Of a DNA stretch of 64,000 nucleotides, positions 24,105 to 59,984 are shown piece after piece. The DNA is from Eledone cirrhosa (lineage: Eukaryota), in NCBI GenBank assembly GCA_964016885.1, contig OZ024743.1:120342001-120406000 (forward strand), read 5' to 3'. Positions within the stretch are counted from its first letter, which is position 1; every line of letters starts with the position of its first letter. Both the position numbers and the translations under genes were made by a program. Under the pieces are notes generated by a model that made no database searches, was not told the origin of the DNA, and saw nothing but the letters and a program-made list of their open reading frames with translations.

Positions 24105-24157
<53 letters not shown>

Positions 24158-24160
<3 letters not shown>

Positions 24161-33409: not shown

Positions 33410-33442
<33 letters not shown>

Positions 33443-33483
33443 ATAATAATTAATAATAATAATAATGATAATAATAATAATAA

Positions 33484-36400: not shown

Positions 36401-37475
36401 AGGAAGCTATTGACTATCTACAACATGTTCCACAAGAGGAGTGATGTCGATAGACTCTACTTAAGGAGATCTGAAGGTGGAAGAGGTCTTATCAGCATAG
36501 AGGACTGTGTTCAGATGGAGAAAAACAACCTACACAAATACGTGACTGATAGTAAGGAGCCAATGCTCAGAATTGTACTGAAGGAGAGGACAATAGACCA
36601 GGGGATGTCCAAGGAGGAAATAACAACAAGGAGAAAGAGCAGGCTTCATGAAAAGTCCGTTCATAGTACCTTCTTTGAGAAAACTGAATTCAGAAATCCA
36701 CAGACATGGAACTGGTTGAAAAGAGGAGACCTTAAAAAGGCTACAGAAGGAATGCTAATGGCTGCGCAAGAGCAGGCTCTCAAAACGAAGTGGCTGAAAC
36801 ACCATATTTGCAAGGAGGAGGCTAGCCCACTGTGCAAGATCTGTGGAGAGAGGAGACTGTGGGCTCACATTGTATCCGAGTGTAAACACCTAGCCCAGAC
36901 TCACTATAAAGGCTGGAGACATGATGTGATGGGCAGGGTGATCCACTGGCACCTATGCAAAGTAAACAATTTACCACATTCTGAGAAGTGGTATGAGCAT
37001 AAGCCAGAGTCGGTGATAGAAAACGATCAGGTGAAGGTGCTGTGGGATTTTAGGATACAGACGGACAAGAAACTGGAACACAATAGACCTGACCTGGTGG
37101 TTTTGGACAAGGAAAAAAGATCGTGCCTGATTGTGGATGTGGCCTGCCCATTCGACACGAGAGTGCAAGAGAAGGAGAGGGAGAAAATTAACCGATACCA
37201 GGACTTAAAGTGGGGGGTAAAAAGGATTTGGAACTGCCATGAAGTTAAAGTAGTCCCGATTGTCATAGGCGCACTAGGTACTATCTCAAAGAGTTTCCAG
37301 GGATGGTTAAAGAAAATTGGCCCCGCCCCGATTTTTGGAACACTTCCAAAAGGCATGCTTGCTGGGAACAGCAAGAACCCTCCGATACGTCCTGAATATC
37401 TGAGGCTGCAGGTAGCGGCTTGATATTCATTTCAACAAACTTCCAGTTAAATAACATCAATGACTGAGACTCAAA

Positions 37476-37476
<1 letters not shown>
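33484..37476 (+). mobile_element. R4/Dong-clade RLE non-LTR retrotransposon, copy A (disrupted)
   Basis: RT motifs DYKKAFD, QGDSLSP, FMDD; CCHC remnant; RHD; RPDLVVLD..DVACPFD..KINRY. Likely ATG at 34363, in-frame stop at about 34558, frameshifts, and a 374-bp deletion at about 36398. (AAT)n at 33441-33483 and 37477-37527. The 5' boundary is inferred. Confidence 0.9.
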
Positions 37477-37529
<53 letters not shown>

Positions 37530-37789
37530 TTTCTTTATTAACCACAAGGGTTTACATAAAGTAGACATTAAGGACAGTGCAGGACAATGCAGGACGGTAC
37601 AAATGGGCATTTCTGCGTGTAAAAAAACAAAAACAGAGGATGTAACAAAAATAACAATGAAAATAACAATGAAAAATTCCCCAATAGGGGGGAGACTTCG
37701 GAGGGACATTTGTGGAGAAAGCCCAGTAAAAAGCCACAATGACCCTGACCACCAAGGCAAGTGCCCTCTCCCAGTTTTCCACCTTTAGT

Positions 37790-40700
37790 TTACAGATATA
37801 TACTCAGAGTCGGCCCATTCACTCGGGCCATTCTTGCTTCTCTCACCCATCTTTCAACAAAATGCTGGGAAGAGAGCACTTCCTTCTCTACTCTGATTTT
37901 CCTTTTCAAATGAAATTTGAAAAAGTCAATCAGAGCATCACCGAAGAGGTAAGTGCTCGTCTTCAGCCCTTTCAAACGTGTCCACCATACTATCTCTTTC
38001 GCCATGGCCACCAGACAGATAAAAACTGCCTGCCCTTCCCGGCTAAAGGAGGAGGGCGGGGCAATCCTCACGATAGACTCAGATGATAGCTGGATCCGTC
38101 CCAAACGCGACAGCAGGTGTTCGACATAAACCCACAAGTCAGCAATTTTCGGACACTGGACGAGTGCGTGCAGGACGGTTTCGTCGCCCTGCGCGCATCT
38201 CGGACATGCCCGGCTGACGGCACCTCCATGCCTGTAGAGTTTATCCCGAACTGGCAAGGCTCCTCGGTAGCACTGCCAGGCCAGAGATTTCTGGAAGTTG
38301 TCCATAGGCCCTGGCCCGAAAGTTCTTCCGAAGAGATTGGCTAGTTGATTTTCGTCGACGCCTAGAGTTTCCCCAAGTACGTCGTCGCTCTTCCCCTCCA
38401 CTAATCCTCTATAGAACGCCGAGGTGGAGTTTCCACCGATCACATTGCCCGATTGGTCGAGGGCTGTGAGCGCCTGAAGACATTCCAGTCTCCAGGCGCT
38501 CCCTCTCGGTCTTCGCTTGACCCAGGACTGCAGCTCCGTCAAGGAAACGAGCTGGGGAAAAACGCGTCTAGCAAACGGCGACCACACCTGATCACCGTCG
38601 AGGAAGAGGTGGAGATGTCGTAGCCTGAGCGCGTGCCTGCGCATCATCAGCCACGGCATGCCCAGCCCTCCACGTAGCGGGTGTTGACAACAGATGGACC
38701 GCCTGACCATCGGAGCACGTCCCTTCCACAAAAAGCGAAAGAGCAAACGCTCCAGCGCAGTCAGGCGAGGCTTAGGACAAGGTACGACGGTTAGGCGGTA
38801 GCAGATGACAGACGCGATGTACGCGTTAGCCACCTCCGCTCGACCTTTCAGGGATAGCTTCCTCTCCGCCCATTTCTGGGTGAGAGAAGCCACCCTGCTC
38901 GTTACCTCGTCCCAGTTTTTGTCCGTCTGGAGGTCCGGACCGAACCAGACCCCTAGCAATTTAACCGGTCCGTCCGTCCAGCGCCCGACGACGCTGTTGG
39001 ACGGCATGGACCTGCCTCTCCAGGTGCCGAGCTGCAGGCCCACTGACTTTTCCTGGTTGATCATTGCTCCTGTCACCGCTTCGTATTCTCTTAGTGTAGT
39101 GCCGATCGCCTCGATGTGTTTGGCGTTCGACACCACTACGGTGACATCGTCCGCATATGCTGACACGGATCTTCCGCATCCTAGTTCGCGCGGGACTCCC
39201 CTCAACGTCTCCAGTTTGTGCAGTAATGGCTCGAGAGTCAATACGTACAAGAGGGACGAGAGGGGACATCCTTGGCGGACCGAGCGCATGATGTTGAACG
39301 GTTCCGACAGGTGACCGTTCACTCTCACCACAGAGCAGATGTCGCTGTGCATGGCAGCGATCCAGCCTCTGAAGACGGGCCCAAAGCCAGCCGCCCTCAG
39401 GACTGCCGCTAGGTAACGATGGTCGACCCTATCGAAAGCTTTCGACTGATCTAAATTGATCAAGGACCCACCCGTGCCAGGTTCCCTAGCTACCCTCTCT
39501 ACGATGTATCGCATGAGGTGGAGGTTGTCGTGGATGGATCTGTCGGGAATGGCGCATGTCTGCGCCTCTCCCACCAGACCACCAACGACAAGCGCCAACC
39601 TCTTTGCTAGCACCTTGGCCAAAATCTTAAACTCTGTGTTTAGCAGAGTTATGGGCCGGAAATTGTCTATGTTATCCCCCTTGTTCGGATCCTTTCTCAG
39701 CAGTGCCACCGCTCCTCGGCTCACAGAACTGGGAATTCTCCCGTTCTGTTGCCAGTTGCAGTAGACGTCCGCCAAGAGGCCTCCGAACAAGTCTGGCATC
39801 TGTACGTAAAGTTCATAGGGCAGACCATCCAAACCAGGCGATTTACCCCTTGTGCAGCCAGTCATTGCCTCCCGTACTTCAGCGGCTGTTATCGGCTTTT
39901 CGCAACACTTCGCCTCAGTGGCCGAGAGCCGCGGCAGTCCGTCGAGGTAGACACTAAAGTCCATCCCTCTACCCGGCCCCCCGCTGCCCCCGAACAGCTG
40001 AGCGAAGTGTCGCTGAAAAGCTTCACACATTTGCCCGGGATCGAGTAGCATGCGCCCGTCGTGGTCCACCAAAGACCGGATCGTGGCTTTGTTGCCACGA
40101 CGCGCCTCCGCCACTCGGGCCCATTGAACGGCTTTCGTCCCCTCGTGTCTGAGAGCACGCACCCTAGCTCTGACAACGCAGCCTTCGTGCTTTGCATTGA
40201 AGAATTGGTCAAGGGCCAATTTCGCCGCAAGCACGTCGGTCGCAATGCCTTTGCTAAGCGCCTCGTCTAATTTTCTAACTAGTTCTCCCTCTGCTCTATT
40301 TTTCTCTATTGCTAAAGCCTTACTAAACCTAATCGATTCTATTCTAATCGCTCTTTTCAGAGCAAACCACCACTTGTTGTTGACGATGGCCCCCGTCAAC
40401 GCCCGCTTAACTAGTTCGCTAATCCGGTCTCTGTAGGCCTTGCGCGCTGGTAAGGACGCGTTTTGCTTCCAGTAGCCGGGTCCTCGTCTATGAAGCCTAT
40501 CTAAGTCAAGCACACAGATCACGAATTTGTGGTCCGTGTAGCTGACTATCTTGAATTGTGGACAGCCTATGCTAGACCTATCTATTTCCCTACAAAATAC
40601 TCTATCTAGATATGATCTGGATGACCCTATGCGGTTTGTCCAAGTCCACATTGGCACATTCGGGAAATCCAATCGGTACCTGTCAGACAGTTCAAAACGC

Positions 40701-41209
40701 CTGAGCAGGTTGGTGAGACTCTTGCACCCTCCACCCCTATCCGCTAATCCCACACAGTCCCAGCGTGCATCTAAGATCCCGTTCCAGTCGCCCACTAACA
40801 CTAAAGAGCGGGACGTTCCAAGAAAGGTCTCCAGACGCCGGAAGAAATCAGGCCGCCCTGCTCCTGTCGGGGCATAGACGGCCACTAGCCTGAAAGCTTG
40901 CCCGTCTCCGCTGGTCACGTCCAGCACCACCAGCTTACCCTCTGGGTCCAGGAAGATGGCCCGTATGGCGAGATCCAAACCTCTCCGAAAAAGCACAGCA
41001 ACTCCTCCACCCGATCCAGGACGGCTGGGAGATGCGTACACATCGTAGCCGCCGAAGATCGGTGCGAAAGCCTGTGCTTCGGAGATTCTGGTCTCGCTGA
41101 TGGCCACTACATCTATGTTTAGTGACCTGAGGTCGTTGAGCAGGTGACCCTGCTTCCATGACGACCCCAAGCCACGCGCATTTATGCTGCCTATTCTGAG
41201 TGAGGTCAT
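37790..41209 (-). CDS. Tx1-like ORF2: APE endonuclease, reverse transcriptase and C-terminal CCHC (1139 aa)
   Basis: INARGL, ISETR, VYAP, GDWN, SYLDRVF, TDHK; KSPGLDG, FRPITLLN, DQSKAFDRV, QGCPLS, YADD; CPRC..ETVLHALVQC. Confidence 0.95.
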   Translation of the reverse strand: MTSLRIGSINARGLGSSWKQGHLLNDLRSLNIDVVAISETRISEAQAFAPIFGGYDVYASPSRPGSGGGVAVLFRRGLDLAIRAIFLDPEGKLVVLDVTSGDGQAFRLVAVYAPTGAGRPDFFRRLETFLGTSRSLVLVGDWNGILDARWDCVGLADRGGGCKSLTNLLRRFELSDRYRLDFPNVPMWTWTNRIGSSRSYLDRVFCREIDRSSIGCPQFKIVSYTDHKFVICVLDLDRLHRRGPGYWKQNASLPARKAYRDRISELVKRALTGAIVNNKWWFALKRAIRIESIRFSKALAIEKNRAEGELVRKLDEALSKGIATDVLAAKLALDQFFNAKHEGCVVRARVRALRHEGTKAVQWARVAEARRGNKATIRSLVDHDGRMLLDPGQMCEAFQRHFAQLFGGSGGPGRGMDFSVYLDGLPRLSATEAKCCEKPITAAEVREAMTGCTRGKSPGLDGLPYELYVQMPDLFGGLLADVYCNWQQNGRIPSSVSRGAVALLRKDPNKGDNIDNFRPITLLNTEFKILAKVLAKRLALVVGGLVGEAQTCAIPDRSIHDNLHLMRYIVERVAREPGTGGSLINLDQSKAFDRVDHRYLAAVLRAAGFGPVFRGWIAAMHSDICSVVRVNGHLSEPFNIMRSVRQGCPLSSLLYVLTLEPLLHKLETLRGVPRELGCGRSVSAYADDVTVVVSNAKHIEAIGTTLREYEAVTGAMINQEKSVGLQLGTWRGRSMPSNSVVGRWTDGPVKLLGVWFGPDLQTDKNWDEVTSRVASLTQKWAERKLSLKGRAEVANAYIASVICYRLTVVPCPKPRLTALERLLFRFLWKGRAPMVRRSICCQHPLRGGLGMPWLMMRRHALRLRHLHLFLDGDQVWSPFARRVFPQLVSLTELQSWVKRRPRGSAWRLECLQALTALDQSGNVIGGNSTSAFYRGLVEGKSDDVLGETLGVDENQLANLFGRTFGPGPMDNFQKSLAWQCYRGALPVRDKLYRHGGAVSRACPRCAQGDETVLHALVQCPKIADLWVYVEHLLSRLGRIQLSSESIVRIAPPSSFSREGQAVFICLVAMAKEIVWWTRLKGLKTSTYLFGDALIDFFKFHLKRKIRVEKEVLSSQHFVERWVREARMARVNGPTLSIYL

Positions 41210-41243
41210 GTTTAAATAGAGTGGAAAAGATGGGAAAGACCAC

Positions 41244-43337
41244 TTACCGTACTTTTGGTAGAGGAGGGATGGTTTTTACATCCCTTTTCACTTGATCGTC
41301 TGGTGAAGGGACCGTTGAATCGTCCCTTCGGCTGGTCGTCGGCTCTTCTAAGAGAATGTCTGAATATACTCTTCGATTGATGGTTCCTCCTAGGTCCCTG
41401 AAATCACCAACTGCGTTGGGGAATTTCGTTTTAATGTTTGTGTATTGTTTCTGTGCTATTTTTAGCAGTCTTATGTTAGTTGGCGTTTTGATTGGTGCTG
41501 GTATTATGTAGTCCTGTTGTGAAATGTCTGTGTGTTCAATTATGTAAGTCATTAGTTTCTTGTTGTGTGTGTTTATTGCCGTGCATTTGTTTTTCTGGGG
41601 GTGGGGTGTGGTTCTGCTATTTTCTTGTCGTTGTTGCTGGGTGTGTGTGTTTTGTTGTTGTGTTTGCGATGTTGGTGCTTGTGGTGGTGGTGTTGAAGGT
41701 GTTGTTGGCGGTGGGGTTGTCGCCGGTGGTGATGGTGGTGCTGGTGTGGGTGGTGATGGTGTTGGTGGTGTTGCTGCTATGGGTCTCTTTGCAGTAGACT
41801 TTACCCTTTTCTCATTTCTTTCCTCCCTTTTCAAAGGCGACGATGCGCTGCTTCTGCGTTTGTGCCTTCTTGCGATCTTTTGCCATCCCTCTCCCACCTC
41901 ACACTCCATGTCTGATTCTGTAAGGTCGGGGAGGGGTACCAGCTCCACTCTTTCACTTGTTGTTGTTGGTGATGTTTGCACTGGAGTCTCTGTTGCAGCT
42001 GCATTTGGTATTGCTGTTGTTGTTGTTAATATTTCCACTGCTGCTGGTGTCTTTGATTTCCGTGGAGTGGGTATGGGTGCCACGGACCTATCGTTCCTGG
42101 TTGCCGCTTGTCCTGTTGCTGGTAGCCGTGGAGCCGGATTCGGAAGGAGGGGGGTTTTCTCCTTTCTCAGGGTCTTCTCGTTGCAGAAGGCCCTGAGGTG
42201 AGTCTTCGATCCACAGCGAAAGCATTTCGGGCGTTTGCCCTCAACACTTATGGGCAGTTGAGTGCCGTTATCGAAGTCTATCACATCCGGGATAGCTTCG
42301 ATGCACTCCTGGTTGGTTTGGATTAGCATCTCAATGGAGGAGCCGACCCAATCTTCTCTTACTTTTTTCTGTACTTGCAGTACAGTTGTTTTGTCCTCGA
42401 TTCCGACGAGGACAGACGCGGCCAGCCAAGAAGGGGTCATTCCGGGGGGGACGTGGGTCAGTTTGACCCTCACAATTTTTTGCCCGCAGTAGGAGGGCAC
42501 CAACACCATTTCCTCGCTCCTTAGGGTCACTACTGATTGGGCCTTTGCCTCCTGGGGTGTGGCAAAAAGTACGTCTACGGTGGCGTATTTTTTGCCTCGG
42601 GTGATGTGCGTTTTCCTCTGCCACACAGACCCCAAGGCTTTTTGTATTTGGGCCTCTGTGGCTCTTTCCACCCTACGGGATTTTGTACTTACTGTACGGT
42701 ACGTGACCGTACAGTGCTCTTGGGTTTCGAAAAAATTTTTCGCTGCCTTGCAGATTGCTCGGTGTCCGTTCTTTGTCACCATCTTCTTCGCTTCCTCTAA
42801 TTCCTCATTTGTTATGAGGATTGTTTCCAAGTTTTTCGCAATACCTGCAAATGAGATTGGTTTTTCTCTGCTGTTGTTGTTGTCGTCAGAGCTGCTGGTA
42901 CTTTTGTTGCTGCAGGTACTACGACTACTGCCTCCGCCGCTGTTGCTGTGGTTGTTGTTGGTGTTGCTGCTGCTAATGCTGTTGTTGTTTATGCTGCTGG
43001 TGATGCTGTTGCGGCTGCTACTGTTGTTTTCATTGTCACTGTTGCTGTTGTTATTACGGCTGCTACTGCTATTATTCCTGACGTCAGACGAATGAACTGG
43101 GTTTTCGTATTTCCCGCACACCTGTTTCGTCGCTGTCGTCGTCGTCGTGGAGAAACCTTGCACGCTTTGCACGAGACTTTTCTTTTCTTTCGTCGCTTGC
43201 GAAAGAGAAGGGAGGGAGAGAGACACATTTAAAGAAGGGAGGGAGAGAGACAATCTTCTCTCTGCTGTAGTGATGATTGAGGAAGAAGAAGACGGAATGA
43301 GTGGGAGTGACGTATGAAATTTCTTTTTGGTAGCCAT
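41244..43337 (-). CDS. Tx1-like ORF1 with gag-type zinc knuckle (type A)
   Basis: Open frame from MATKKK (ATG at 43337). Contains CFRCGSKTHLRAFC and Ser/Asn- and Pro/Thr-rich low-complexity flanks. Confidence 0.85.
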   Translation of the reverse strand: MATKKKFHTSLPLIPSSSSSIITTAERRLSLSLPSLNVSLSLPSLSQATKEKKSLVQSVQGFSTTTTTATKQVCGKYENPVHSSDVRNNSSSSRNNNSNSDNENNSSSRNSITSSINNNSISSSNTNNNHSNSGGGSSRSTCSNKSTSSSDDNNNSREKPISFAGIAKNLETILITNEELEEAKKMVTKNGHRAICKAAKNFFETQEHCTVTYRTVSTKSRRVERATEAQIQKALGSVWQRKTHITRGKKYATVDVLFATPQEAKAQSVVTLRSEEMVLVPSYCGQKIVRVKLTHVPPGMTPSWLAASVLVGIEDKTTVLQVQKKVREDWVGSSIEMLIQTNQECIEAIPDVIDFDNGTQLPISVEGKRPKCFRCGSKTHLRAFCNEKTLRKEKTPLLPNPAPRLPATGQAATRNDRSVAPIPTPRKSKTPAAVEILTTTTAIPNAAATETPVQTSPTTTSERVELVPLPDLTESDMECEVGEGWQKIARRHKRRSSASSPLKREERNEKRVKSTAKRPIAATPPTPSPPTPAPPSPPATTPPPTTPSTPPPQAPTSQTQQQNTHTQQQRQENSRTTPHPQKNKCTAINTHNKKLMTYIIEHTDISQQDYIIPAPIKTPTNIRLLKIAQKQYTNIKTKFPNAVGDFRDLGGTINRRVYSDILLEEPTTSRRDDSTVPSPDDQVKRDVKTIPPLPKVR

Positions 43338-43550
43338 GTTTTTTTGTTTAAAATGAAATTTTGGGTACAAAACCCCAATAACTGGTTATTTAACCCCGAA
43401 GGGCCAAATAACGGACAGAAAGACCCCTCTCACGAGGAGGAGGGTGTCTTTATCAACAATTTGGTTCAAGTTTTAAACAATTTACAATTGTTTTAACGGT
43501 TAAAAATTACTATACCTTACAGAGCCGAGCCTCCGTCAACCATGGCATTC

Positions 43551-43582
<32 letters not shown>

Positions 43583-43584
<2 letters not shown>

Positions 43585-46500
43585 TTGTTTTCTTAACCAC
43601 AAGGGTTCACATAAAGTAGACATTAAGGACAGTACAGGACAATACAGGACGGTACAAATGGGCATTTCTGCGTGTAAAAAAACAGAGGTTGAAATAAAAT
43701 AACAAAGAAAAATTCCCCAATAGGGGGGAGACTTCCAAGGGACATTTGTGGAGAAAGCCCATTAAAAGACCACAGTGGCCCAGACCACCAGGGCAAGTGC
43801 CCTCTCCCAGTTTTCCACCTTTAATTTACAGACACATACTCAGAGAAGGCCCATTCATTCGGGCCATACTTGCTTCTCTCACCCATCTTTCAACAAAATG
43901 CTGGGAAGAGAGCACTTCCCTCTCTACCCTGATTTTCCTTTTCAAATGAAATTTGAAAAAGTTAATCAGGGCATCACCGAAGAGGTAAGTGCTCGTCTTC
44001 AGCCCTTTCAAACGTGTCCACCATACTATCTCTTTCGCCATGGCCACCATACAGATAAAAACTGCCTGCCCTTCCAGGCAGGGGGTGGGGCAATCCTCAC
44101 TATGGACTCAGCTGATAGCTGGATAGGTCCTACACGTGACAGCAGGTGTTCGACATAAACCCACAAGTCAGCAATGCTCGGACACTGGACGAGTGCGTGC
44201 AGGACGGTTTCGTCGCCCTGCGCGCATCTCGGACATGCCCGGCTGACGGCACCTCCATGCCTGTAGAGTTTATCCCGAACTGGCAAAGCTCCTCGGTAGC
44301 ACTGCCAGGCCAGGGATTTCTGGAAGTTGTCCATAGGCCCCGGCCCGAAAGTCCTTCCGAAGAGATTGGCTAGTTCATTTTCGTCGACGCCTAGAGTTTC
44401 TCCAAGTACGTCGTCGCTCTTCCCCTCCACTAATCCCCTATAGAACGCCAAGGTGGAGTTTCCACCGATCACATTGCCCGATTGGTCGAGGGCTGTGAGC
44501 GCCTGAAGACATTCCAGTCTCCAAGCGCTCCCTCTCGGTCTTCGCTTGACCCAGGACTGCAGCTCAGTCAAGGAGACGAGCTGGGGAAAAACGTGTCTTG
44601 CAAACGGCGACCACACCTGATCACCGTCGAGGAAGAGGTGGAGATGTCGTAGCCTGAGCGCGTGTCAGCGCATCATCAGCCACGGCATGCCCAGCCCTCC
44701 ACGTAGCGGGTGTTGACAGCAGATGGACCGCCTGACCATCGGAGCGCGTCCCTTCCACAAGAAGCGAAAGAGCAAACGCTCCAGCGCAGTCAGGCGGGGC
44801 TTAGGACAAGGTACGACGGATGCGATGCGATGAACGGATTCGCCACCTCCGCTCGACCTTTCAGGGATAGCTTCCTCTCCGCCCATTTCTGGGTGAGAGA
44901 AGCCACCCTGCTCGTCACCTCGTCCCAGTTTTTGTCCGTCTGGAGGTCTGGACCGAACCAGACCCCTAGCAATTTAACCGGTCCGTCCGTCCAGCGCCCG
45001 ACGACGCTGTTGGACGGCATGGACCTGCCTCTCCAGGTGCCGAGCTGCAGGCCCACTGACTTTTCCTGATTGATCATTGCTCCTGTCACCGCTTCGTATT
45101 CTCTTAGTGTAGTGCCGATCGCCTCGATGTGTTTGGCGTTCGACACCACTACGGTGACATCGTCGGCATATGCTGACACGGATCTTCCGCATCCTAGTTC
45201 GCGCGGGACCCCCCTCAACATCTCCAGTTTGTGCAGTAATGGCTCGAGAGTCAATACGTACAATAGGGACGAGAGGGGACATCCTTGGCGGACCGAGCGC
45301 ATGATGTTGAACGGTTCCGAAAGGTGACCGTTCACTCTCACTACAGAGCAGATGTCGCTGTGCATGGCAGCGATCCAGCCTCTGAAGACGGGCCCAAAGC
45401 CAGCCGCCCTCAGGACTGCCGTTAGGTAACGATGGTCGACCCTATCGAAGGCTTTCGACTGATCTAAATTGATCAAAGACCCACCCGTGCCAGGTTCCCT
45501 AGCTACCCTCTCTACGATGTATCGCATGAGGTGGAGGTTGTCGTGGATGGATCTGTCGGGAATGGCGCATGTCTGCGCCTCTCCCACCAGACCACCAACG
45601 ACAAGCGCCAACCTCTTTGCTAGCACCTTGGCCAAAATCTTGAACTCTGTGTTTAGCAGAGTTATGGGCCTAAAATTATCTATGTTATCCCCCTTGTTCG
45701 GATCCTTTCTCAGCAGCGCCACCGCTCCTCGGCTCACAGAGCTGGGAATTCTCCCGTTCTGTTGCCAGTTGCAGTAGACGTCCGCCAAGAGGCCTCCGAA
45801 CAAGTTTGGCATTTGTACGTAAAGTTCATAGGGCAGACCATCCAAACCAGGCGATTTACCCCTTGTGCAACTAGTCATTGCATCCCGTACTTCAGCGGTT
45901 GTTATCGGCTTTTCGCAACACTTCGCCTCAGTGGCCGAAAGCCGCGGCAGTCCGTCGAGGTAGACACTAAAGTCCATCCCTCGATCCGGCCCGCCACTGC
46001 CCCCGAACAGTTGAGCGAAGTGTCGCTGAAAAGCTTCACACATTTGCCCGGGATCGAGTAGCATGCGCCCGTCGTGGTCCACCAAAGACCGGTTCTGGCT
46101 TTGTTGCCACGACGCGTCTCCGCCACTCGGGCCCATTGAACGGCTTTCGTCCCCTCGTGTCTGAGAGCACGCACCCTAGCTCTGACAACGCAGCCTTCGT
46201 GCTTTGCATTGAAGAATTGGTCAAGGGCCAATTTCGCCGCAAGTACGTCGGTCGCGATACCTTTGCTAAGCGCCTCATCTAATTTTCTAACTAATTCTCC
46301 CTCTGCTCTATTTTTCTCTATTGCTAAAGTCTTACTAAACCTGATGGACTCTATTCTAATTGCTCTTTTCAGAGCAAACCACCACTTGTTGTTGACGATG
46401 GCCCCCGTCAACGCCCGCTTAACTAGCTCGCTAATCCGGTCTCTGTAGGCCTTGCGCGCTGGTAAGGACGCGTTTAGCTTCCAGTAGCCGGGTCCTTGTC

Positions 46501-49432
46501 TATGAAGCCTATCTAAGTCAAGCACACAGATCACGAATTTGTGGTCCGTGTAGCTGACTATCTTGAATTGTGGACAGCCTATGCTAGACCTATCTATTTC
46601 CCTACAAAATACTCTATCTAGATATGATCTGGATGACCCTATGCGATTTGTCCGAGTCCACATTGGTACATTCGGGAAATCCATTCGGTACCTGTCAGAC
46701 AGTTCAAAACGTCTGAGCAGGTTGGTGAGACTCTTGCACCCTCCTTCCCTATCCACTAATCCCACACAATCCCAGCGTGCATCTAAGATCCCGTTCCAGT
46801 CGCCCACTAACACTAAAGAGCGGGAGTTCCAAGAAAGGTCTCCAGACGCCGGAAGAAATCAGGCCGCCCTGCTCCTGTCGGGGCATAGACGGCCACTAAT
46901 CTGAAAGCTTGCCCGTCTCCGCTGGTCACGTCCAGCACCACCAACTTACCTTCTGGGTCCAGGAAGATGGCCCGTATGGCAAGATCCAAACCTCTCCGAA
47001 AAAGCACAGCAACTCCTCCCCCGATCCCGGACGGCTGGGAGATGCGTACACATCGTAGCCGCCGAAGATCGGTGCGAAAGCCTGTGCTTCGGAGATTCTG
47101 GTCTCGCTGATGGCCACTACATCTATGTTTAGTGACCTGAGGTCGTTGAGCAGGTGGCCCTGCTTCCATGACGACCCCAAGCCACGCGCATTTATGCTGC
47201 CTATTCTGAGTGAGGTCATGTTGAAAAGGAGTGGAAAAGATGGGAAAGACCACTTACCTTACTTCTCGTAGGGGAAGGACGGCTTTTCCATCCTTTTCAC
47301 TGCTTGTGGCCTCCTCAGGAAGGATGTCCTTATAAATCCTCCTGGAGAGTGCTTGTCGGAAGTCTCCGATGTCTTTGGGGAATTTTTGTTTTAGTGTCAT
47401 ATACGTTTTCTGTGTGATGCGAGTGATTTGTATGTGTGGAGGTGGTGTGAATTTTGGGGTTGTTGTGTAGTCTTTTTCTGTGATGCTGGTGTTGTGTTGG
47501 ATGTAGTGTAATAATTGCTTGTTGTTCAAATTTAATGCTGTGTAGTGTGTATCGTTTTGGTTGTTTTGTTTTGTTTGCGTTTGTTGTGGGTTTGTTTCTG
47601 TTTCGTATTTTGGTGACTTTTGTGGTGTAGGTGATGGTGGTGCTGGGGATAATGATGGTGATGGTGTTGGTGTTTGGGTTGATGGGGTTGGTGATGCTGG
47701 TGTGGATGGTGGCATATCTGTCCTAACTTTTTTGTTTCTTAGTTTATTTGTTTCCCTCTGTATTTTGTTTTTGGAGGGGGAAGGAAGAGAATTTTTTCTT
47801 TTTTGGTTTCTTTTTTTTTTTCCGGATATCGTTTCCCACTCCTCGTCGTCACAATCTGTCTCCAGTTGTGATAGGCCGGGGAGTGGAAAATCCTCCACAG
47901 CCGTTAGTTTTGGTTGTGGTGTGGTGGATGGTGTAGGCGCTGGTGCTAGTTCTGAAGCGTTGGGTGGTGGTGGTGTTGGTTTTGCTGGTGGTGGTAGTGG
48001 TGTTGGTTTTGCTACTGTTGCTGGGGTTGTTGCTGTTATAGTTGCTTCTGTTGTTGCTGGCATCTCTGCTACTGGTAGTGTTGATGGTTGTGTCACTGGG
48101 GTGGGTAGGAGAGGTGGCCTCAACCTTTTAGCCTGAGGGCAGAAAGCCCTTAGGTGGGTTCCTTCACCACAAACGACACACCTAGGTCTTCTGCCCTCGA
48201 CAATTACCGTGAGGTGGCTGCCGTCAGTGAGGTCTATTACCTCTGGGATCTCCTCAATGCTTTTTTGGTTCGCTTGGATCAGGAGCTCCATCCCAGATCC
48301 GGACCAGTTTTCCTGCTTTTCTTTTGCTATTGTTATTATTTTCGTGTTGGCCTCGATGCCGGCGATGACAGCCGCTATTAGCCAGGGAATTTCGATGGCC
48401 GGTGGAACGTGGGTCACCCTGATCTTTACGAGTCTCTGGCCACAATAGCTTGGGACGAGTGTGAAGTCGTCACTTTTTAATGGGGCCATGGAGTGTTCTC
48501 TAGCCTCCTCTGGTGTTTCAAAGAACACATCCACGGTTCCATACTTTTGCCCACGTCTGATGTGGGTTTTTCTTGCCCACACATGTCCCAAAGCTTTTTG
48601 GATTTGGGACTCGGATGCCCGTTCCACTCAGCGCGATTTTACATTTATTGTTCTATACGACACGGTGCACAGGCGCCGATGCTCCATTTTATTAGGTGGG
48701 GGGTGAGGCTGACCCTGTACCCATCTTTCTTTACGATTTGTTTGGCATTTTCTAAATCTTCTTGAGTTACCGTGAACGCTTCGAATTGTTTTGCTACGAT
48801 GGCGAAACTGAGGGTCGGTTTTATAATGTCATTGTTGTTGTTGTTGCTATCGTTAATATTAATTTTATTTTCAGTTGTGGTGGTGGTGACATCAGTTGTC
48901 TTTGGTGGGGAAGAGTCCATTTTGCTTGATTTCATTTCGACGTCACGAGTTAATTTATTTTTTTCTTCTTTTGTTTCTGTTGTCGCGGTGGTGGTGGTGA
49001 TGGTGGTTGTCGCAGTGGTGGTGGTGGTGGAGGGTTTAACACCTGCAGTCATTGGTAATGGCGGGAAATGAATGTCTGCCTGAGACAAATTTAAAATATT
49101 GCTACTGCTTATATTTTTTTTTGTGTTGGCAAACGTAGTAACATTTACAATGGTGGTGTCGGTGTGAGGTGTTATTTTGTGAGGAAGGCTTTCAGCTGCT
49201 TCGTGCAGAGGTGAAGTAGCCATTTTTTTTCAAAGAAATTTTTTGATAATAATAAAAGTTAAAATTTTGGGCACAAGGCCCCAATCTTTTTAGGTGTCCT
49301 TTTCGGAAAACAATGTATGTGTGCTTATAAACAGTTAACAATAAAATTATCCATAAATGGCAATTTTTAAACAAACGGAAATAACAAACCTTTGCGGAGC
49401 TCACGATAATACGATTTCCTACGTAGGTCGCC
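43583..49432 (-). mobile_element. Full-length Tx1-clade LINE, copy 2 (frameshifted), with a different 5'UTR/ORF1
   Basis: ORF2 pieces from 43826 to 47219 are nearly identical to copy 1. ORF1 is split (48645-49223 and 47254-48627) and has CVVCGEGTHLRAFC. (AAT)n at 43551-43582 and 49433-49491. Confidence 0.93.
47254..49223 (-). pseudogene. Tx1-like ORF1 type B (frameshifted near 48650-48700)
   Basis: Homologous to but divergent from copy-1 ORF1 (QIQKALG, LVPSYCGQ, VEGRRPRC..C....HLRAFC). Confidence 0.85.
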
Positions 49433-49490
<58 letters not shown>

Positions 49491-49491
<1 letters not shown>

Positions 49492-52389
49492 GTGGGAGAC
49501 CTATGAACCTAAGATTTGTAGACAGGAAAAAGTTAAAAGAAACAACAGCTAAGGTAAACAAAGTCATCCCATACCTTGAGGCGAGGAGCCTTCACCAGTG
49601 CAACAATATCCTCAAAGCAACAGCAAATACGGTGAGGAAACTACTTGGTATAAAAGCGAGAGGAAACAACAGACAAGAAAGAGCAGAGCCGTGGTGGAAG
49701 AAACGACTGAGTGGTCAGATCGGGGAAATGAGAAATGACATAGGAAAGCTTGAGTCACTACTGAATGGGACACTAAAAAACATAGGCACTAAAAATAGAC
49801 TGGAAATAAAGTACAAAACTAGGAGGAAAAAGCTAAATATTATCATAGAGGAACTGAAGCAACGCATTGTAGCAAAGAGTGCAAAAATCAGGCGATACGA
49901 GAACAGAGTCAGTCAGTATAAACAGAACCGCATGTTCGACAACAACCAGAAGATGCTGTTTGGACAGCTTGAGGGGAAAGAAAGAGGCAACGACTTGATC
50001 CCTGGGGCGGAGCAAACTAAAACATTCTGGAGAGGAATATGGGAGCAGGATGTTAGACATAATGTCCAGGCAGGGTGGATTGAGACAGTACAGAGGTAGA
50101 TCGGTGAGCAGACACACCAACAAACTGATTTGAGTATCACAGTTGAAACTCTTAAGGGGCAGGCCAAAAAACTAACCAACTGGAAATCACCAGGCTCAGA
50201 TGGTGTGCAGGGGTATTGGATTAAACATTTAACATCCCTCCACCCGAAGCTGACGGTCATGTTCAATGACTGCTTGGTGTCGGGTGAGGTGCCAGAGTGG
50301 TTGACAAAAGGTACCACAGTTCTGATAATGAAAGACCGAATCAAGGGTAATGATGTTACCAACTATAGACCTATCACATGTCTGTCCGTAATGTGGAAAC
50401 TGTTGACGAGCATTGTGTCTGAGGAAATCTACCATCACCTCCACACAAACAACTTGTTACCGGACGAACAGAAAGGATGCCGAAAGAAGTCACGTGGTAC
50501 AAAGGACCAGTTACTTATTGATAAGATGGTAATGGGGAATTGCAGGAGGAGACACACTGATCTTGCCATGGGATGGATAGACTACAGAAAGGCATTTGAC
50601 ATGGTGCCTCATTCTTGGATCACCAAAAGCCTGGAGATCTTCAGGGTGGCAGATAACATCAGACAGTTGCTGGGCAGGAGTATGGGGTCCTGGGAGACAG
50701 AGTTGACATCAACTGGAGTATCCTTGGGAATCGTGAAGATCAAGAGAGGTATCTTCCAGGGAGATAGCCTGTCCCCTCTGTTGTTTGTCCTTGCCCTGAT
50801 GCCCTTGACCATTATGCTGCGAAAAGTGAGAGCAGGATACAAGTTGGGAAAGGGAGAGCTTACCATCAATCACCCCCTCTTCATGGACGATCTTAAGCTC
50901 TTCGGGAAAAGTGAGAAGGAGTTGGATGTGCTTGTTGACACTGTCCGTATTTTCAGCAGTGATATATGTATGCAGTTTGGTATTAGTAAATGTGGAGTCA
51001 TTGTGATGAGGAGGGGTATGTTGAGCAGAAGTAACGGGATCCAGATACCAACAGGTGAGATGATAAAGGAAATTGACTCTGAGGAAGGATACAAGTATTT
51101 GGGCGTTCTGGAGGCTGATGGCATAAAGAACAAAAAAATGAAGGAATTGTTAAGAACTGAATACATTCGGAGAGTAAGGAGCGTATTGAAGTCACATCTG
51201 AACAGCAGAAATGCCATAAGCGCAGTAAATTCCCGAGCTGTGTCTATTATTAGGTATAGTGCGGGAATTCTGAGATGGAATGTTGCTGAACAAAAAGAAA
51301 TGGATAGGAAGACTAGGAAGCTATTGACTATCTACAACATGTTCCACAAGAGGAGTGATGTCGATAGACTCTACCTAAGGAGATCTGAGGGTGGAAGAGG
51401 TCTTATCAGCATAGAGGACTGTGTTCGGATGGAGAAAAACAACCTATACAAATACGTGACCTATAGTAAGGAGCCAATGCTCAGAACTGTACTGAAGGAG
51501 GGGACAGTAGGCCAGGGGATGTCCAAGGAGGAAATAACATCAAGGAGGAAGAGCAGGCTTAAGGGAAAATCCCTTCATAGTACCTTCTTTGAGAAAACTG
51601 AATTTAGAGATCCACAGACATGGAACTGGTTGAGAAGAGGAGACCTCAAAAAGGCTACAGAAGGAATGCTAATGGCTGCGCAGGAGCAGGCCCTCAAAAT
51701 GAAGTGGTTGAAGCACCATATTTACAAGGAGGAGGCTAGCCCACTGTGCAGGATCTGTGGAGAGAGAGGAGACTGTGGCTCACATTGTGTCCGAGTGTAA
51801 ACACCTAGCCCAGACCCACTATAAGGGCTGGAGACACGATGTGATGGGCAGGGTGATCCACTGGCACCTGTGCAAAGTAAACAATTTACCACATTCTGAG
51901 AAATGGTATGAGCATAGGCCAGAGGCGGTGATGGAGAACAATCAGGTGAAGGTGCTGTGGGATTTTAGGATACAGACGGACAAAACTGGAACACAATAGA
52001 CCTGACCTGGTGGTTGTGGACAAAGAAAAAAGATCGTGTCTGATTGTGGATGTGGCCTGCCCTTTCGACACGAGAGTGCAAGAGAAGGAGAGGGAGAAAA
52101 TTAACCGATACCAGGACCTAAAGTGGGAGGTGAAAAGGATTTGGAACTGCCATGAAGTCAAAGTGATCCCGATTGTCATAGGCGCACTGGGGACTATCTC
52201 CAAAAGTTTCCAGGGATGGTTAAAGAAAATCGGCCCCTTCACGCTTTTTGGAACGCTTCAAAAGGCATGCTTGCTTGGAACAGCAAGAACCCTCCGATAC
52301 GTCCTGAATATCTGAGGCTGCAGGTAGTGGCTTGATATTCATTCCAACGGACTTTCCAGTTAACCAACATCAATGACTGAGATTCAAGG
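49491..52389 (+). mobile_element. R4/Dong-clade element, copy B (5'-truncated)
   Basis: Starts at (AAT)n-AGTGGGAGACCTATG and is nearly identical to copy C. Stop at about 50097 and frameshifts near 51765 and 51985. AAC/AAT tail at 52390-52424. Confidence 0.93.
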
Positions 52390-52422
52390 AATAACAACAA
52401 TAATAATAATAATAATAATAAT

Positions 52423-52566
52423 AATTGTTTCTACTTTTTGGCACAAGGCCAGCAATTATCCCAGTGTATCACTGGTACTTTATTTTATCGACCCCGTAAG
52501 GATGAAAGGCCAAGTTAACCTCGGCGGGATTTGAACTCAGTCCATAAAGGGACGTAACTGTGCTGG
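52423..52566 (-). mobile_element. 5'-truncated SINE in the (AAT)n tail of Dong copy B, fused to a Tx1 3'UTR
   Basis: aattgtttctactttttggcacaagg...gatttgaactcag, followed directly by the Tx1 3'UTR sequence aatagggggg. Confidence 0.9.
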
Positions 52567-53332
52567 AATAGGGGGGAGACTGCCGAGGGACATTCCTGGA
52601 GAAAGCCCATTAAAAAGCCACAGTGACCCTGACCACCAGGGCAAGTGCCCTCTCCCAGTTTTCTACCTTTAATTTACAGACACATACTCAGAGTAGGCAT
52701 ATTCACTCGGGCCATTTTTGCCTCTCTCACCCATCTTTCAACAAAATGCTGGGAAGAGAGCACTTCCCTTTCTACCCTGATTTTCCTTTTTAAATAAAAT
52801 TAGGGCATCACCGAAGAGTAAGTGCTCGTCTTCAGCCCTTTCAAACGTGCCCACCATACTATCTCTTTCGCCATGGCCACCAGACAGATAAAAACTGCCT
52901 GCCCTTCCCGGCTAAAGGAAGAGGGCGGGGCAATCCTCACGATGGACTCAGCTGATAGCTGGATCCGTTCTACACGCGACAGCAGGTGTTCGATAAACCC
53001 ATAAGTCAGCAATGCTCGGACACTGGACGAGTGCGTGCAGGACGGTTTCGTCGCCCTGCGCGCATCTCGGACATGCCCGGCTGACGGCACCTCCATGCCT
53101 ATAGAGTTTATCCCGAACTGGCAAGGCTCCTCAGCAGCACTGCCAGGCCAGAGGTCCCGGCCCGAAAGTTCTTCCGAAGAGATTGGCTAGTTGATTTTCG
53201 TCGACGCCTAGAGTTTCCCCAAGTACGTCGTCGCTCTTCCCCTCCACTAATCCTCTATAGAACTGAACATACAACTGAAAATAACAAACCTTTGCGGAGC
53301 TCACGATGATACGATTTACTACGTAGTTCGCC
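52567..53332 (-). mobile_element. Internally deleted Tx1 derivative (copy 3): about 70-nt 5' end joined to the ORF2 3' end
   Basis: 53264-53332 resembles the 5' terminus of copy 2 (49370-49432). 52567-53263 matches the ORF2 C-terminus and 3'UTR, with small deletions. Confidence 0.88.
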
Positions 53333-53386
<54 letters not shown>

Positions 53387-53387
<1 letters not shown>

Positions 53388-55303
53388 TTTTCTTTATTAA
53401 CCACAAAGGTTTACATAAAGTAGACATTAAGGACAGTACAGGACAATACAGGACGGTACAAATGGACATTTCTGCGTGTAAAAAAAACAGAGGATGAAAT
53501 AAAATAACAAAGAAAAATTCCCCAATAGGGGGGAGACTTCCGAGGGACATTTGTGGAGAAAGCCCATTAAAAGACCACAGTGGCCCTGACCACCAGGGCA
53601 AGTGCCCTCTCCCAGTTTTCCACCTTTAATTTACAGACACATACTCAGAGAAGGCCCATTCATTCGGGCCATACATGCTTCTCTCACCCATCTTTCAACA
53701 AAATGCTGGGAAGAGAGCACTTCCCTCTCTACCCTGATTTTCCTTTTCAGATGAAATTTGAAAAAGTTAATCAGGGCATCACCGAAGAGGTAAGTGCTCG
53801 TCTTCAGCCCTTTCAAACGTGTCCACCATACTATCTCTTTCGCCATGGCCACCAGACAGATAAAAAATGCCTGCCCTTCCCGGCTAAAGGAAGGGGGCGG
53901 GGCAACCCTCACGATGGACTCAGCTGATAGCCGGATCCGTCCTACACGTGACAGCAGGTGTTCGACATAAACCCACAAGTCAGCAATGCTCGGACACTGG
54001 ACGAGTGCGGTTAGGACGGTTTCGTCGCCCTGCGCGCATCTCGGACATGCCCGGCTGACGGCACCTCCATGCCTGTAGAGTTTATCCCGAACTGGCAAAG
54101 CTCCTCGGTAGCACTGCCAGACCAGGGATTTCTGGAAGTTGTCCATAGGCCCCGGCCCGAAAGTCCTTCCGAAGAGATTGGCTAGTTGATTTTCGTCGAC
54201 GCCTAGAGTTTCTCCAAGTACGTCGTCGCTCTTCCCCTCCACTAATCCCCTATAGAACGCCAAGGTGGAGTTTCCACCGATCACATTGCCCGATTGGTCG
54301 AGGGCTGTGAGCGCCTGAAGACATTCCAGTCTCCAAGCGCTCCCTCTCGGTCTTCGCTTGACCCAGGACTGCAGCTCCGTCAAGGAGACGAGCTGGGGAA
54401 AAACGCTTCTAGCAAACGGCGACCACACCTGATCACCGTCGAGGAAGAGGTGGAGATGTCGTAGCCTGAGCGCGTGTCTGCGCATCATCAGCCACGGCAT
54501 GCCCAGCCCTCCACGTAGCGGGTGTTGACAGCAGATGGACCGCCTGACCATCGGAGCGCGTCCCTTTCACAAGAAGCGAAAGAGCAAACGCTCCAGCGCA
54601 GTCAGGCGGGGCTTAGGACAAGGTACGACGGTCAGGCGGTAGTAAATGACGGATGCGATGTACGCATTCGCCACCTCCGCTCGACCTTTCAGGGATATCT
54701 TCCTCTCGGCCCATTTCTGGGTGAGAGAAGCCACCCTGCTCGTCACCTCGTCCCAGTTTTTGTCCGTCTGGAGGTCTGGACCGAACCAGACCCCTAGCAA
54801 TTTAACCGGTCCGTCCGTCCAGCGCCCGACGACGCTGTTGGACGGCATGGACCTGCCTCTCCAGGTGCCGAGCTGCAGGCCCACTGACTTTTCCTGGTTG
54901 ATCATTGCTCCTGTCACCGCTTCGTATTCTCTTAGTGTAGTGCCGATCGCCTCGATGTGTTTGGCGTTCGACACCACTACGGTGACATCGTCGGCATATG
55001 CTGACACGGATCTTCCGCATCCTAGTTCGCGCGGGACCCCCTCAACGTCTCCAGTTTGTGCAGTAATGGCTCGAGAGTCAATACGTACAATAGGGACGAG
55101 AGGGGACATCCTTGGCGGACCGAGCGCATGATGTTGAACGGTTCCGAAAGGTGACCGTTCACTCTCACTACAGAGCAGATGTCGCTGTGCATGGCAGCGA
55201 TCCAGCCTCTGAAGACGGGCTGAAAGCCAGCCGCCCTCAGGACTGCCGCTAGGTAACGATGGTCGACCCTATCGAAGGCTTTCGACTGATCTAAATTGAT
55301 CAA
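53387..55303 (-). mobile_element. 5'-truncated Tx1-clade LINE, copy 4
   Basis: Runs from INLDQSKAFD to the 3'UTR, with frameshifts. (AAT)n on both sides. Confidence 0.93.
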
Positions 55304-55320
55304 ATAATAATAATAATAAT

Positions 55321-55508
55321 AATTGTTTCTACGTTAGGCACAAGGCCAGCAATTACCCAGTGCATTACTGGTACTTTATTTTATCGACCGTAAGGATGAA
55401 AGGCAAAGTTAGCTTTGGCGGGATTTGAACTCAGGATGGCAAGGACCGTAACTCTATACGTCAAAGCATGGCGTCCGACCCTGTACCAATACTGCCAATC
55501 CACCGCCC
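55321..55508 (-). mobile_element. Full-length SINE flanked by (AAT)n on both sides
   Basis: Reverse complement reads GGGCGGTGGATTGGCAG...GAGTTCAAATCCCGCC...CCTTGTGCCTAACGTAGAAACAATT(ATT)n. Confidence 0.92.
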
Positions 55509-55563
<55 letters not shown>

Positions 55564-58600: not shown

Positions 58601-59940
58601 GGTGAGATGATAAAGGAAATTGACTCTGAGGAAGGATACAAGTATTTGGGCGTTCTGGAGGCTGATGGCATAAAGAACAAAAAAATGAAGGAATTGTTAA
58701 GAACTGAATACATTCGGAGAGTAAGGAGCGTATTGAAGTCACATCTGAACAGCAGAAATGCCATAAGCGCAGTAAATTCCCGAGCTGTGTCTATTATTAG
58801 GTACAGTGCTGGAATTCTGAGATGGAATGTTGCTGAACAAAAAGAAATGGATAGGAAGACTAGGAAGCTATTGACTATCTACAACATGTTCCACAAGAGG
58901 AGTGATGTCGATAGACTCTACCTAAGGAGATCTGAGGGTGGAAGAGGTCTTATCAGCATAGAGGACTGTGTTCAGATGGAGAAAAACAACCTATACAAAT
59001 ACGTGACCTATAGTAAGGAGCCAATGCTCAGAACTGTACTGAAGGAGGGGACAGTAGGCCAGGGGATATCCAAGGAGGAAATAACATCAAGGAGGAAGAG
59101 CAGCCTTAAGGGAAAATCCCTTCATAGTACCTTCTTTGAGAAAACTGAATTTAGAGATCCACAGACATGGAACTGGTTGAGAAGAGGAGACCTCAAAAAG
59201 GCTACAGAAGGAATGCTAATGGCTGCGCAGGAGCAGGCCCTCAAAACGAAGTGGTTGAAGCACCATATCTACAAGGAGGAGGCTAGCCCACTGTGCAGGA
59301 TCTGTGGAGAGAGAGAGGAGACTGTGGCTCACATTGTGTCCGAGTGTAAACACCTAGCCCAGACCCACTATAAGGGCTGGAGACACGATGTGATGGGCAG
59401 GGTGATCCACTGGCACCTGTGCAAAGTAAACAATCTACCACATTCTGAGAAATGGTATGAGCATAGGCCAGAGGCGGTGATGGAGAACAGTCAGGTGAAG
59501 GTGCTGTGGGATTTTAGGATACAGACGGACAAAAAACTGGAACACAATAGACCTGACCTGGTGGTTGTGGACAAAGAAAAAAGATCGTGCCTGATTGTGG
59601 ATGTGGCCTGCCCGTTCGACACGAGAGTGCAAGAGAAGGAGAGGGAGAAAATTAACCGATACCAGGACCTAAAGTGGGAGGTGAAAAGGATTTGGAACTG
59701 CCATGAAGTCAAAGTGATCCCGATTGTCATAGGCGCACTGGGGACTATCTCCAAAGGTTTCCAGGGATGGTTAAAGAAAATCGGCCCCTTCACGCTCTTT
59801 GGAACGCTTCAAAAGGCATGCTTGCTTGGAACAGCAAGAACCCTCCGATACGTCCTGAATATCTGAGGCTGCAGGTAGTGGCTTGATATTCAATCCAACG
59901 GACTTTCCAGTTAACCAACATCAATGACTGAGATTCAAGG
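55564..59940 (+). mobile_element. R4/Dong-clade element, copy C (full length, one frameshift)
   Basis: A 5' region of about 900 nt is partly shared with copy A. ORFs 56475-57725 and 57752-59866. Tail (AAC/AAT)n at 59941-59982; (AAT)n upstream at 55510-55563. Confidence 0.93.
56475..59866 (+). pseudogene. R4/Dong ORF: RT, CCHC and PD-(D/E)xK restriction-like endonuclease, with one frameshift at about 57721
   Basis: YRPITCL, EQKG, DYRKAFD, QGDSLSP, FMDD, YKYLG, CRICGEREETVAHIVSEC, RHD, RPDLVVVD. Reads aaactataaactgg where copies A and B have aaactaaccaactgg. Confidence 0.92.
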
Positions 59941-59952
59941 AATAACAATAAC

Positions 59953-59984
<32 letters not shown>

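What the first reader, a model, noticed from the sequence alone, without database searches (positions are those of the whole stretch)
37477..55323. Candidate (ATT)n-specific Tx1-clade LINE, one copy coding-intact
Seen: all four Tx1 copies have (ATT)n at the 5' junction, including 5'-truncated copy 4 (55303) and two different 5' termini (43550 versus 49432/53332). The three copies with intact 3' ends have (ATT)n tails, not poly(A). A 5' tract is not explained by a 3' tail, so it points to targeting. Known: Tx1-clade target-specific families include Kibi/Koshi (TC/TTC repeats), Keno (U2 snRNA) and Dewa (tRNA arrays). I do not recall a TAA-specific one but cannot verify novelty. Copy 1 has uninterrupted ORF1 and a 1139-aa ORF2.
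Basis: partly seen in the sequence, partly recalled or inferred. Interest (0 to 1): 0.8.

Follow-up and report, generated by a model that had tools for sequence, protein, structure and literature searches.

The report
Octopod LINE inserting into ATT repeats
Four copies of an L1/Tx1-type jumping gene, probably from an octopus relative, all sit inside ATT repeats that they share with an unrelated TAA-seeking element, which suggests a repeat target not found for this group in the papers searched, though only one locus could be examined.

Summary
Four minus-strand L1/Tx1-like LINE copies each have (ATT)7-19 directly at the 5' junction, the three with native 3' ends have (ATT)n tails, and copy 1 has intact ORF1 (697 aa) and ORF2 (1139 aa). 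The host is probably an octopod.

This is a 26-kb nest of three plus-strand Dong/R4-like elements (a known TAA-targeting kind), the four LINEs and a SINE, joined by eight AAT tracts. Three of the four 5' tracts are also the upstream neighbour's 3' tail, so they are not independent proof.

Targeting is still the best reading. Copy 2's 5' tract is nobody's tail, copy 1 looks younger than copy 2, and none of 40 other microsatellites in the window borders a copy. Against strict specificity: the endonuclease hairpin has L1 length, and a possibly partnered SINE uses short ATT sites outside repeats.

The genome-wide flank test could not be run. Tx1 membership is inferred from domains, not from a tree with named references. 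No ATT-specific Tx1 turned up in ten searches; Repbase was not available. Verdict: a likely new target variant of a known kind.

The parts
33940..37476 (+). Dong/R4-like RLE element A; degenerate (374-nt deletion, frameshifts); 5' end not fixed
   Evidence: 90-93% blastn identity to B and C; 6.2% and 8.1% substitutions
37477..37527 (.). (AAT)17 tract shared tail-to-tail by element A and LINE copy 1
37528..43550 (-). LINE copy 1, full length (6023 nt), coding-intact
37790..41209 (-). Copy 1 ORF2, 1139 aa: APE endonuclease, RT (YADD at 685), C-terminal zf-RVT
   Evidence: Pfam PF03372, PF00078, PF13966; nearest solved EN is L1-type; motifs
41244..43337 (-). Copy 1 ORF1, 697 aa: CCHC knuckle at 372, RRM-like region before it
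   Evidence: Atlas feature hits to CCHC and ZCCHC3-type RNA-binding clusters, 0.89-0.93; no Pfam hit at E<=0.001
43551..43583 (.). (AAT)11 tract: 5' flank of copy 1 and 3' tail of copy 2
43584..49432 (-). LINE copy 2, full length (5849 nt); different 5'UTR and ORF1 (53% identical in the core); ORF1 frameshifted, 5 frameshifting deletions in ORF2
49433..49489 (.). (AAT)19 tract between two 5' ends (copy 2 and element B); not the tail of any element
49490..52398 (+). Dong/R4-like element B, 5'-truncated, 1.6% from element C
52399..52425 (.). (AAT)9 tract shared by element B tail and the SINE end of copy 3
52426..53332 (-). Copy 3, chimeric: 62-nt copy-2-type 5' end (53332-53271), ORF2 C-terminal/3'UTR piece with 4 deletions (53263-52567), SINE 3' part (about 52566-52426)
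53333..53386 (.). (AAT)18 tract: 5' flank of copy 3 and 3' tail of copy 4
53387..55302 (-). LINE copy 4, 5'-truncated inside RT (1916 nt), same subfamily as copy 2
55303..55323 (.). (AAT)7 tract: 5' flank of copy 4 and tail of the SINE
55324..55508 (-). 185-nt SINE-like element with ATT repeats on both sides; related pieces dispersed in the window
   Evidence: 12 other blast hits; tRNA-like head judged by eye only, no Rfam match
55509..55562 (.). (TAA)18 tract 5' of the SINE and upstream of element C
55856..59952 (+). Dong/R4-like element C: RT followed by zinc knuckle and PD..D restriction-like endonuclease; near full length; 5' end not fixed
   Evidence: nearest solved structures are R2 proteins, E 2e-29, with a C-terminal PDLV match
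59953..59982 (.). (AAT)10 tail of element C; right edge of the nest

Best explanation
An L1-group, Tx1-like LINE family of octopods that preferentially inserts into (ATT)n microsatellites by target-primed reverse transcription. Inferred steps: the APE endonuclease nicks the (AAT)n strand, probably at a TpA step; the freed 3' end pairs with the (AUU)n RNA tail and primes reverse transcription; second-strand cleavage inside the same tract leaves ATT repeats on both sides. Each insertion leaves a new ATT tail, so the locus keeps offering targets. Dong/R4-like elements use the same tracts in the opposite orientation, and together they built this nest. Shown: anatomy, junctions, orientation, intact catalytic motifs. 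Inferred: nick site, priming, order of events, genome-wide preference.
For: 4 of 4 5' junctions and 3 of 3 native 3' ends abut ATT repeats in the same orientation. All 8 perfect AAT tracts of 18 nt or more in the window are element junctions; none of the 40 other perfect microsatellite tracts borders a copy, and no LINE copy lies outside the nest. The tract 5' of copy 2 lies between two 5' ends, so it must predate copy 2. Copy 1 looks younger than copy 2: in the 1891 columns shared by copies 1, 2 and 4, private changes are 30 synonymous/13 non-synonymous for copy 1 against 6/13 and 4/12 (Fisher p=0.0005), and ORF2 has 0 frameshifts in copy 1 against 5 in copy 2 (Poisson p=0.007-0.017). So copy 1 probably entered an existing tract between copy 2 and element A. 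Copies 1 and 2 differ in 5'UTR and ORF1, so they are not a tandem duplication. Microsatellite targeting is established in the Tx1 clade (PMC4494074).
Against: One locus, chosen because it looked striking. Three of four 5' tracts are also a neighbour's tail. Copy 3 is a LINE/SINE chimera, so template switching or recombination does occur here. The EN hairpin loop has 10 residues, as in human L1, against 12 in the LTX chimera. Five dispersed SINE copies with a 3' end are all followed by ATT, and 2 of 5 have a 9-nt duplication starting with ATT, yet none lies in a pure ATT tract; if this LINE is their partner, it needs only a short motif. None of the 21 loose ends displayed (of 3276) begins with AAT repeats, though these were internal low-complexity or divergent-family ends and junction rows were dropped. 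At copy 4 a TT is shared by both sides, so its phase is ambiguous.
Confidence: 0.6

Rival explanations
1. Relaxed preference. The enzyme needs only a short ATT motif that can pair with the RNA tail. Long tracts are local hot spots, and the nest reflects accumulation in a tolerant region; most genomic copies would not lie in microsatellites.
For: Dispersed SINE copies: 5 of 5 followed by ATT, 2 of 5 with target duplications that start with ATT in non-repeat DNA. The SINE's last 22 nt match copy 1's last 22 nt at 15 positions, the best of 6002 22-mers in copy 1. L1-length EN hairpin. The family appears highly repetitive in one run.
Against: The SINE-LINE partnership is only suggested: the 22-nt window was chosen after inspection, two other 22-mers score 14, and other copy pairs score 13-14 with offsets. 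No LINE copy in this window lies outside a long tract.
Confidence: 0.22
2. No target preference. Tandem runs arose by RT template jumping from one RNA's 5' end to the next RNA's AUU tail, or by recombination between tails, and Dong elements supplied the remaining tracts.
For: 3 of 4 5' tracts are upstream tails; copy 3 is a chimera with two switch points; both outer 5' tracts adjoin Dong-like elements.
Against: The tract 5' of copy 2 and the tract 5' of the SINE are not tails. Copy 1 and copy 2 differ in apparent age. Copy 3 carries 4 deletions in about 700 nt against 1 in the ORF2 part of copy 4.
Confidence: 0.1
3. The LINE uses breaks made in TAA tracts by the Dong restriction-like endonuclease rather than its own nick.
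For: Every LINE block here is bounded by Dong-like elements, always in opposite orientation.
Against: Copy 1 keeps the APE catalytic motifs and its ORF2 lineage is under purifying selection. Sharing a target explains co-location without this.
Confidence: 0.05
4. Assembly artefact: repeats joined wrongly at shared AAT tracts.
For: Every junction is a simple repeat, and no read spanning a junction was seen.
Against: Copies are 3-5% apart with private mutations, and truncation points differ. A mis-join at a tract would still need ATT at each 5' end.
Confidence: 0.03

Closest known systems
Microsatellite-targeting Tx1-clade LINEs: Kibi (TC)n, Koshi (TTC)n, crocodilian Tx1 families on (TTCC)n/(TTTC)n (Kojima 2015, PMC4494074; passages and section 15 read)
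   Same: Two-ORF APE-RT LINE of the L1 group with a microsatellite on both sides in fixed orientation.
   Different: The repeat here is (ATT)n, not a pyrimidine-rich TC-type unit; the host is a mollusc. Phylogenetic closeness to Kibi/Koshi was not testable.
Dong (Bombyx, Anopheles, Biomphalaria) and Rex6, which insert into TAA repeats (PMC3812793 and PMC1635306, passages)
   Same: Same microsatellite. Dong/R4-like elements are the direct neighbours here.
   Different: Dong-type elements use a C-terminal restriction-like endonuclease (PMC1635306) and lie in the TAA orientation; this family has an N-terminal APE and lies in the ATT orientation.
Octopus vulgaris L1-Tx1 and Dong-R4 families (PMC13282606; parts 1-2 of 3 and a supplement search)
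   Same: Both classes are abundant and recently active in octopus (13 L1-Tx1 families with 421 recent insertions; 5 Dong-R4 families with 1129). This family may well be among them.
   Different: The text read gives no target-site analysis; 'target' and 'microsatellite' do not occur in the supplement. The consensus library (Zenodo) could not be compared.
Human L1 ORF2p
   Same: Nearest solved endonuclease type; hairpin loop of equal length.
   Different: Poly(A) tail and a non-CCHC ORF1 in mammalian L1 (PMC5203782; tail recalled).

Membership tests
L1 group non-LTR retrotransposon | ORF2 with N-terminal APE, RT and C-terminal zinc-binding domain | tested here: met
   Pfam hits above cut-off; EN's best PDB matches are L1-type ENs, E 4e-6 to 5e-5; motifs present
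Tx1 clade | ORF1 of RRM plus CCHC type (consistent with Tx1 in non-mammalian animals, PMC5203782) | tested here: inconclusive
   CCHC knuckle present in copies 1 and 2; RRM-like only by Atlas features, 0.89-0.93; no Pfam hit. The feature is not unique to Tx1.
Tx1 clade | RT phylogeny groups it with reference Tx1 families | not testable with these tools
   The tree (169 rows kept from 278 proteins after coverage and redundancy filters) holds no named Tx1 or Repbase reference; 30 name look-ups gave only generic names
Target-specific Tx1 family | One sequence type in more than 20% of flanks genome-wide (criterion in PMC4494074) | tested here: inconclusive
   4 of 4 at one nested locus; no genome held; read laying skipped the tract
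Tx1L-type sequence-specific EN | Extended beta-hairpin loop (that LTX carries the Tx1L loop is recalled, not from a call) | tested here: not met
   10 residues, as in human L1, against 12 in PDB 2v0r LTX; 10 is also the commonest length among relatives (37 of 97 scored)
Dong/R4 (neighbouring plus-strand elements) | RT followed by zinc knuckle and PD-D/ExK endonuclease; TAA tail and flanks | tested here: met
   3 of 3 end in AAT repeats
Dong/R4 (neighbouring plus-strand elements) | RT phylogeny within the R4 clade | not tested
   Only nearest solved relatives (R2 proteins) were obtained
MetaSINE (the SINE) | 66-bp Meta central domain | not tested
   Resemblance recalled from memory; the figure sequences of PMC4824008 are not held

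The most novel reading that the evidence does not exclude
An APE-type Tx1 lineage has converged on the same microsatellite as the unrelated restriction-like Dong elements, entering from the opposite strand. It also mobilises an abundant octopod SINE through a shared 3' end. Because each insertion leaves a new ATT tract, the three families build self-extending mixed arrays genome-wide.
Probability: 0.25. Interest if true: 0.6.

Novelty: new variant of a known kind. Interest (0 to 1): 0.4.

Why it matters
It would add (ATT)n to the list of targets reached by APE endonucleases and give a natural pair of unrelated nucleases aimed at one repeat, which is useful for asking whether specificity lies in the enzyme or in tail-target pairing. 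A coding-intact copy makes this directly testable. It could also name a partner LINE for an octopod SINE and help explain repeat hot spots in octopus genomes. The mechanism class itself is known, so the advance is incremental.

Tried and rejected
Genome-wide flanks: no genome is held. Laying four runs on 38000-44050 gave no junction data, because the tool skipped 43545-43596 and dropped rows there. Run X22 gave only low-complexity partial matches (526 reads, all partial). In X4 one contig starts 43 letters before 43597, which fits 13 nt of element plus 30 nt of tail, but the letters were not shown, so it is not counted. No RNA holder was listed; this says nothing about expression.

Related loci: none in viral contigs or prokaryote genomes.

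An ORF1 homologue search found nothing. The Rfam scan was empty. A structure prediction was submitted but never returned. RNA folding of the 3' ends showed no hairpin shared by LINE and SINE. Tandem duplication of one copy was rejected. Four of five look-ups of earlier findings were empty.

Kojima and Fujiwara 2004 and Kojima's Genes Genet Syst review are not held. The supplement and Fig. 3 of PMC4494074, which list targets of known Tx1 families, could not be seen and may bear on novelty.
Full report
OBSERVATION. The window is microsatellite-rich animal DNA (40% GC). Eight perfect AAT tracts of 18 nt or more occur, all between 37477 and 59982. Four related minus-strand elements start immediately after ATT repeats at 43550, 49432, 53332 and 55302; copies 1, 2 and 4 end in (ATT)n. 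Copy 1 is 6023 nt with a 697-aa ORF1 and a 1139-aa ORF2, both unbroken.

WHAT THE ELEMENT IS. ORF2 has an APE endonuclease, RT and zf-RVT domain, with the usual catalytic motifs in place. Its endonuclease is closest to L1-type ENs among solved structures. ORF1 has a CCHC knuckle and a region that resembles RRM/ZCCHC3-type proteins by language-model features only. This fits an L1-group, Tx1-like LINE (PMC5203782, passages). I could not place it against named Tx1 references: the RT tree held only unnamed or generically named proteins. The nearest named relatives are Argonauta hians proteins at 60-67% identity, so the host is probably an octopod (inference). The sequence index lists 20 runs holding part of the element, 11 of them with at least half its words. 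I laid four runs: X1, X4 and X6 cover all 30 bins, X22 gives only low-complexity matches. In X1 the summed depth over ORF2 is about 0.6-1.1 million, against 20-70 for most single joints. This suggests a highly repetitive family, but the tool warns it is not a copy number.

Three plus-strand elements (about 33940-37476, 49490-52398 and 55856-59952) encode RT followed by a zinc knuckle and a PD..D endonuclease; their nearest solved relatives are R2 proteins. All three end in AAT repeats. I read them as Dong/R4-like. Dong is known to target TAA repeats (PMC3812793 and PMC1635306, passages) and is abundant in octopus (PMC13282606; PMC9115989, passages). A 185-nt SINE at 55508-55324 has ATT repeats on both sides. 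The order is: Dong A, tract, copies 1 and 2, tract, Dong B, tract, copy 3, copy 4, SINE, tract, Dong C, tract. Every junction between elements is an AAT tract. Copy 3 is a chimera of a 62-nt 5' end, an ORF2 C-terminal piece and a SINE 3' half.

DOES THE 5' TRACT PROVE TARGETING? The tracts 5' of copies 1, 3 and 4 are at once the tails of copy 2, copy 4 and the SINE. Three points still favour targeting. First, the tract 5' of copy 2 lies between two 5' ends, so it existed before copy 2 arrived. Second, copy 1 appears younger than copy 2. Among 1891 columns shared by copies 1, 2 and 4, private coding changes are 30 synonymous to 13 non-synonymous in copy 1, against 6:13 and 4:12 in copies 2 and 4 (synonymous site fraction 0.24; Fisher p=0.0005). 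Copy 2 has 5 frameshifting ORF2 deletions and copy 1 none (p=0.007-0.017). One template-jump event is therefore unlikely to have made the pair. Third, none of the 40 other perfect microsatellite tracts in the window borders a copy, and no copy lies outside the nest. The junctions read ATT| in 4 of 4 cases, but at copy 4 a TT is shared by both sides.

EVIDENCE AGAINST STRICT SPECIFICITY. This is one selected locus. The EN hairpin loop is 10 residues, as in human L1, against 12 in the LTX chimera (that LTX carries the Tx1L loop is recalled). The SINE's last 22 nt match copy 1's last 22 nt at 15 positions, the best of 6002 windows in copy 1, although the window length was chosen after inspection and two other windows score 14. 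Five dispersed SINE copies with a 3' end are all followed by ATT, and two have 9-nt target duplications beginning with ATT in non-repeat DNA. If this LINE is their partner, a short ATT motif may be enough, and long tracts would be hot spots rather than obligatory sites. The direct test failed: no genome is held and the read-laying tool skipped the tract.

MECHANISM. Most likely (0.6): the APE nicks the AAT strand of an (ATT)n tract, the nick primes on the (AUU)n RNA tail, and the insertion ends up with repeats on both sides. Each new tail is a new target, and Dong-like elements use the same tracts from the other side. Only the anatomy is shown; the nick, priming and order are inferred from target-primed reverse transcription as established for LINEs. 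Rivals: relaxed short-motif preference (0.22), template jumping or tail recombination (0.10), use of Dong-made breaks (0.05), mis-assembly (0.03).

COMPARISON WITH WHAT IS KNOWN. It works like Kibi, Koshi and the crocodilian (TTCC)n/(TTTC)n Tx1 families (PMC4494074, passages and section 15), but on a different repeat. It shares its repeat with Dong and Rex6, which use a different endonuclease. Ten searches and passages of 13 papers showed no ATT- or TAA-specific Tx1 family. Non-poly(A) tails, including (TAA)n, are known in algal L1-clade families (PMC3747384). Repbase, Kojima and Fujiwara 2004, and the figure and supplement of PMC4494074 were not available, so prior description cannot be excluded. 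Intact L1-Tx1 copies are common in octopus.

VERDICT. The feature is real. It is probably an ATT-preferring Tx1-like LINE, a new target variant of a known kind, shown at one locus only. Interest 0.4.

Noticed in passing
window 33940-37476, 49490-52398, 55856-59952 (+): Three Dong/R4-like restriction-endonuclease elements interleaved with the LINE copies, always in opposite orientation; B and C differ by 1.6%.
   Followed up: partly
window 55324-55508 and dispersed copies at 12335-12521, 20283-20385, 29579-29764, 30344-30499, 31419-31601: SINE family whose 3' end is followed by ATT in 5 of 5 dispersed copies, two with ATT-initial target duplications; its last 22 nt resemble the LINE's last 22 nt (15 of 22).
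   Followed up: partly
window 52426-53332 (-): LINE/SINE chimera; the switch to SINE sequence falls right after an ATT in the LINE 3'UTR.
   Followed up: partly
window 43337-41244 versus 49223-47254 (-): Copies 1 and 2 have ORF2 about 3% apart but different 5'UTRs and only 53% identical ORF1 cores, which suggests 5' module swapping. In run X1 the copy-1 ORF1 region has roughly a quarter of the ORF2 depth.
   Followed up: partly
window 21186-22041 / 22779-23635: 857-bp inverted repeat, 98.6% identical, around a 740-bp spacer; possibly a young foldback or MITE-type DNA transposon.
   Followed up: no
window 24155-24777 / 25178-25852 and 60096-60207 / 60544-60655: Two further inverted-repeat elements (about 89% and 88% identical arms).
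   Followed up: no
protein cluster of P0107: A distant relative (30% identity) in Patella caerulea occurs as 11 listed proteins with near-consecutive locus tags SNE40_003393-003415, which suggests a tandem array of a site-preferring LINE.
   Followed up: no
window 33441-33482: Degenerate TAA tract a few hundred bases upstream of Dong-like element A; may be the old left edge of the nest.
   Followed up: no
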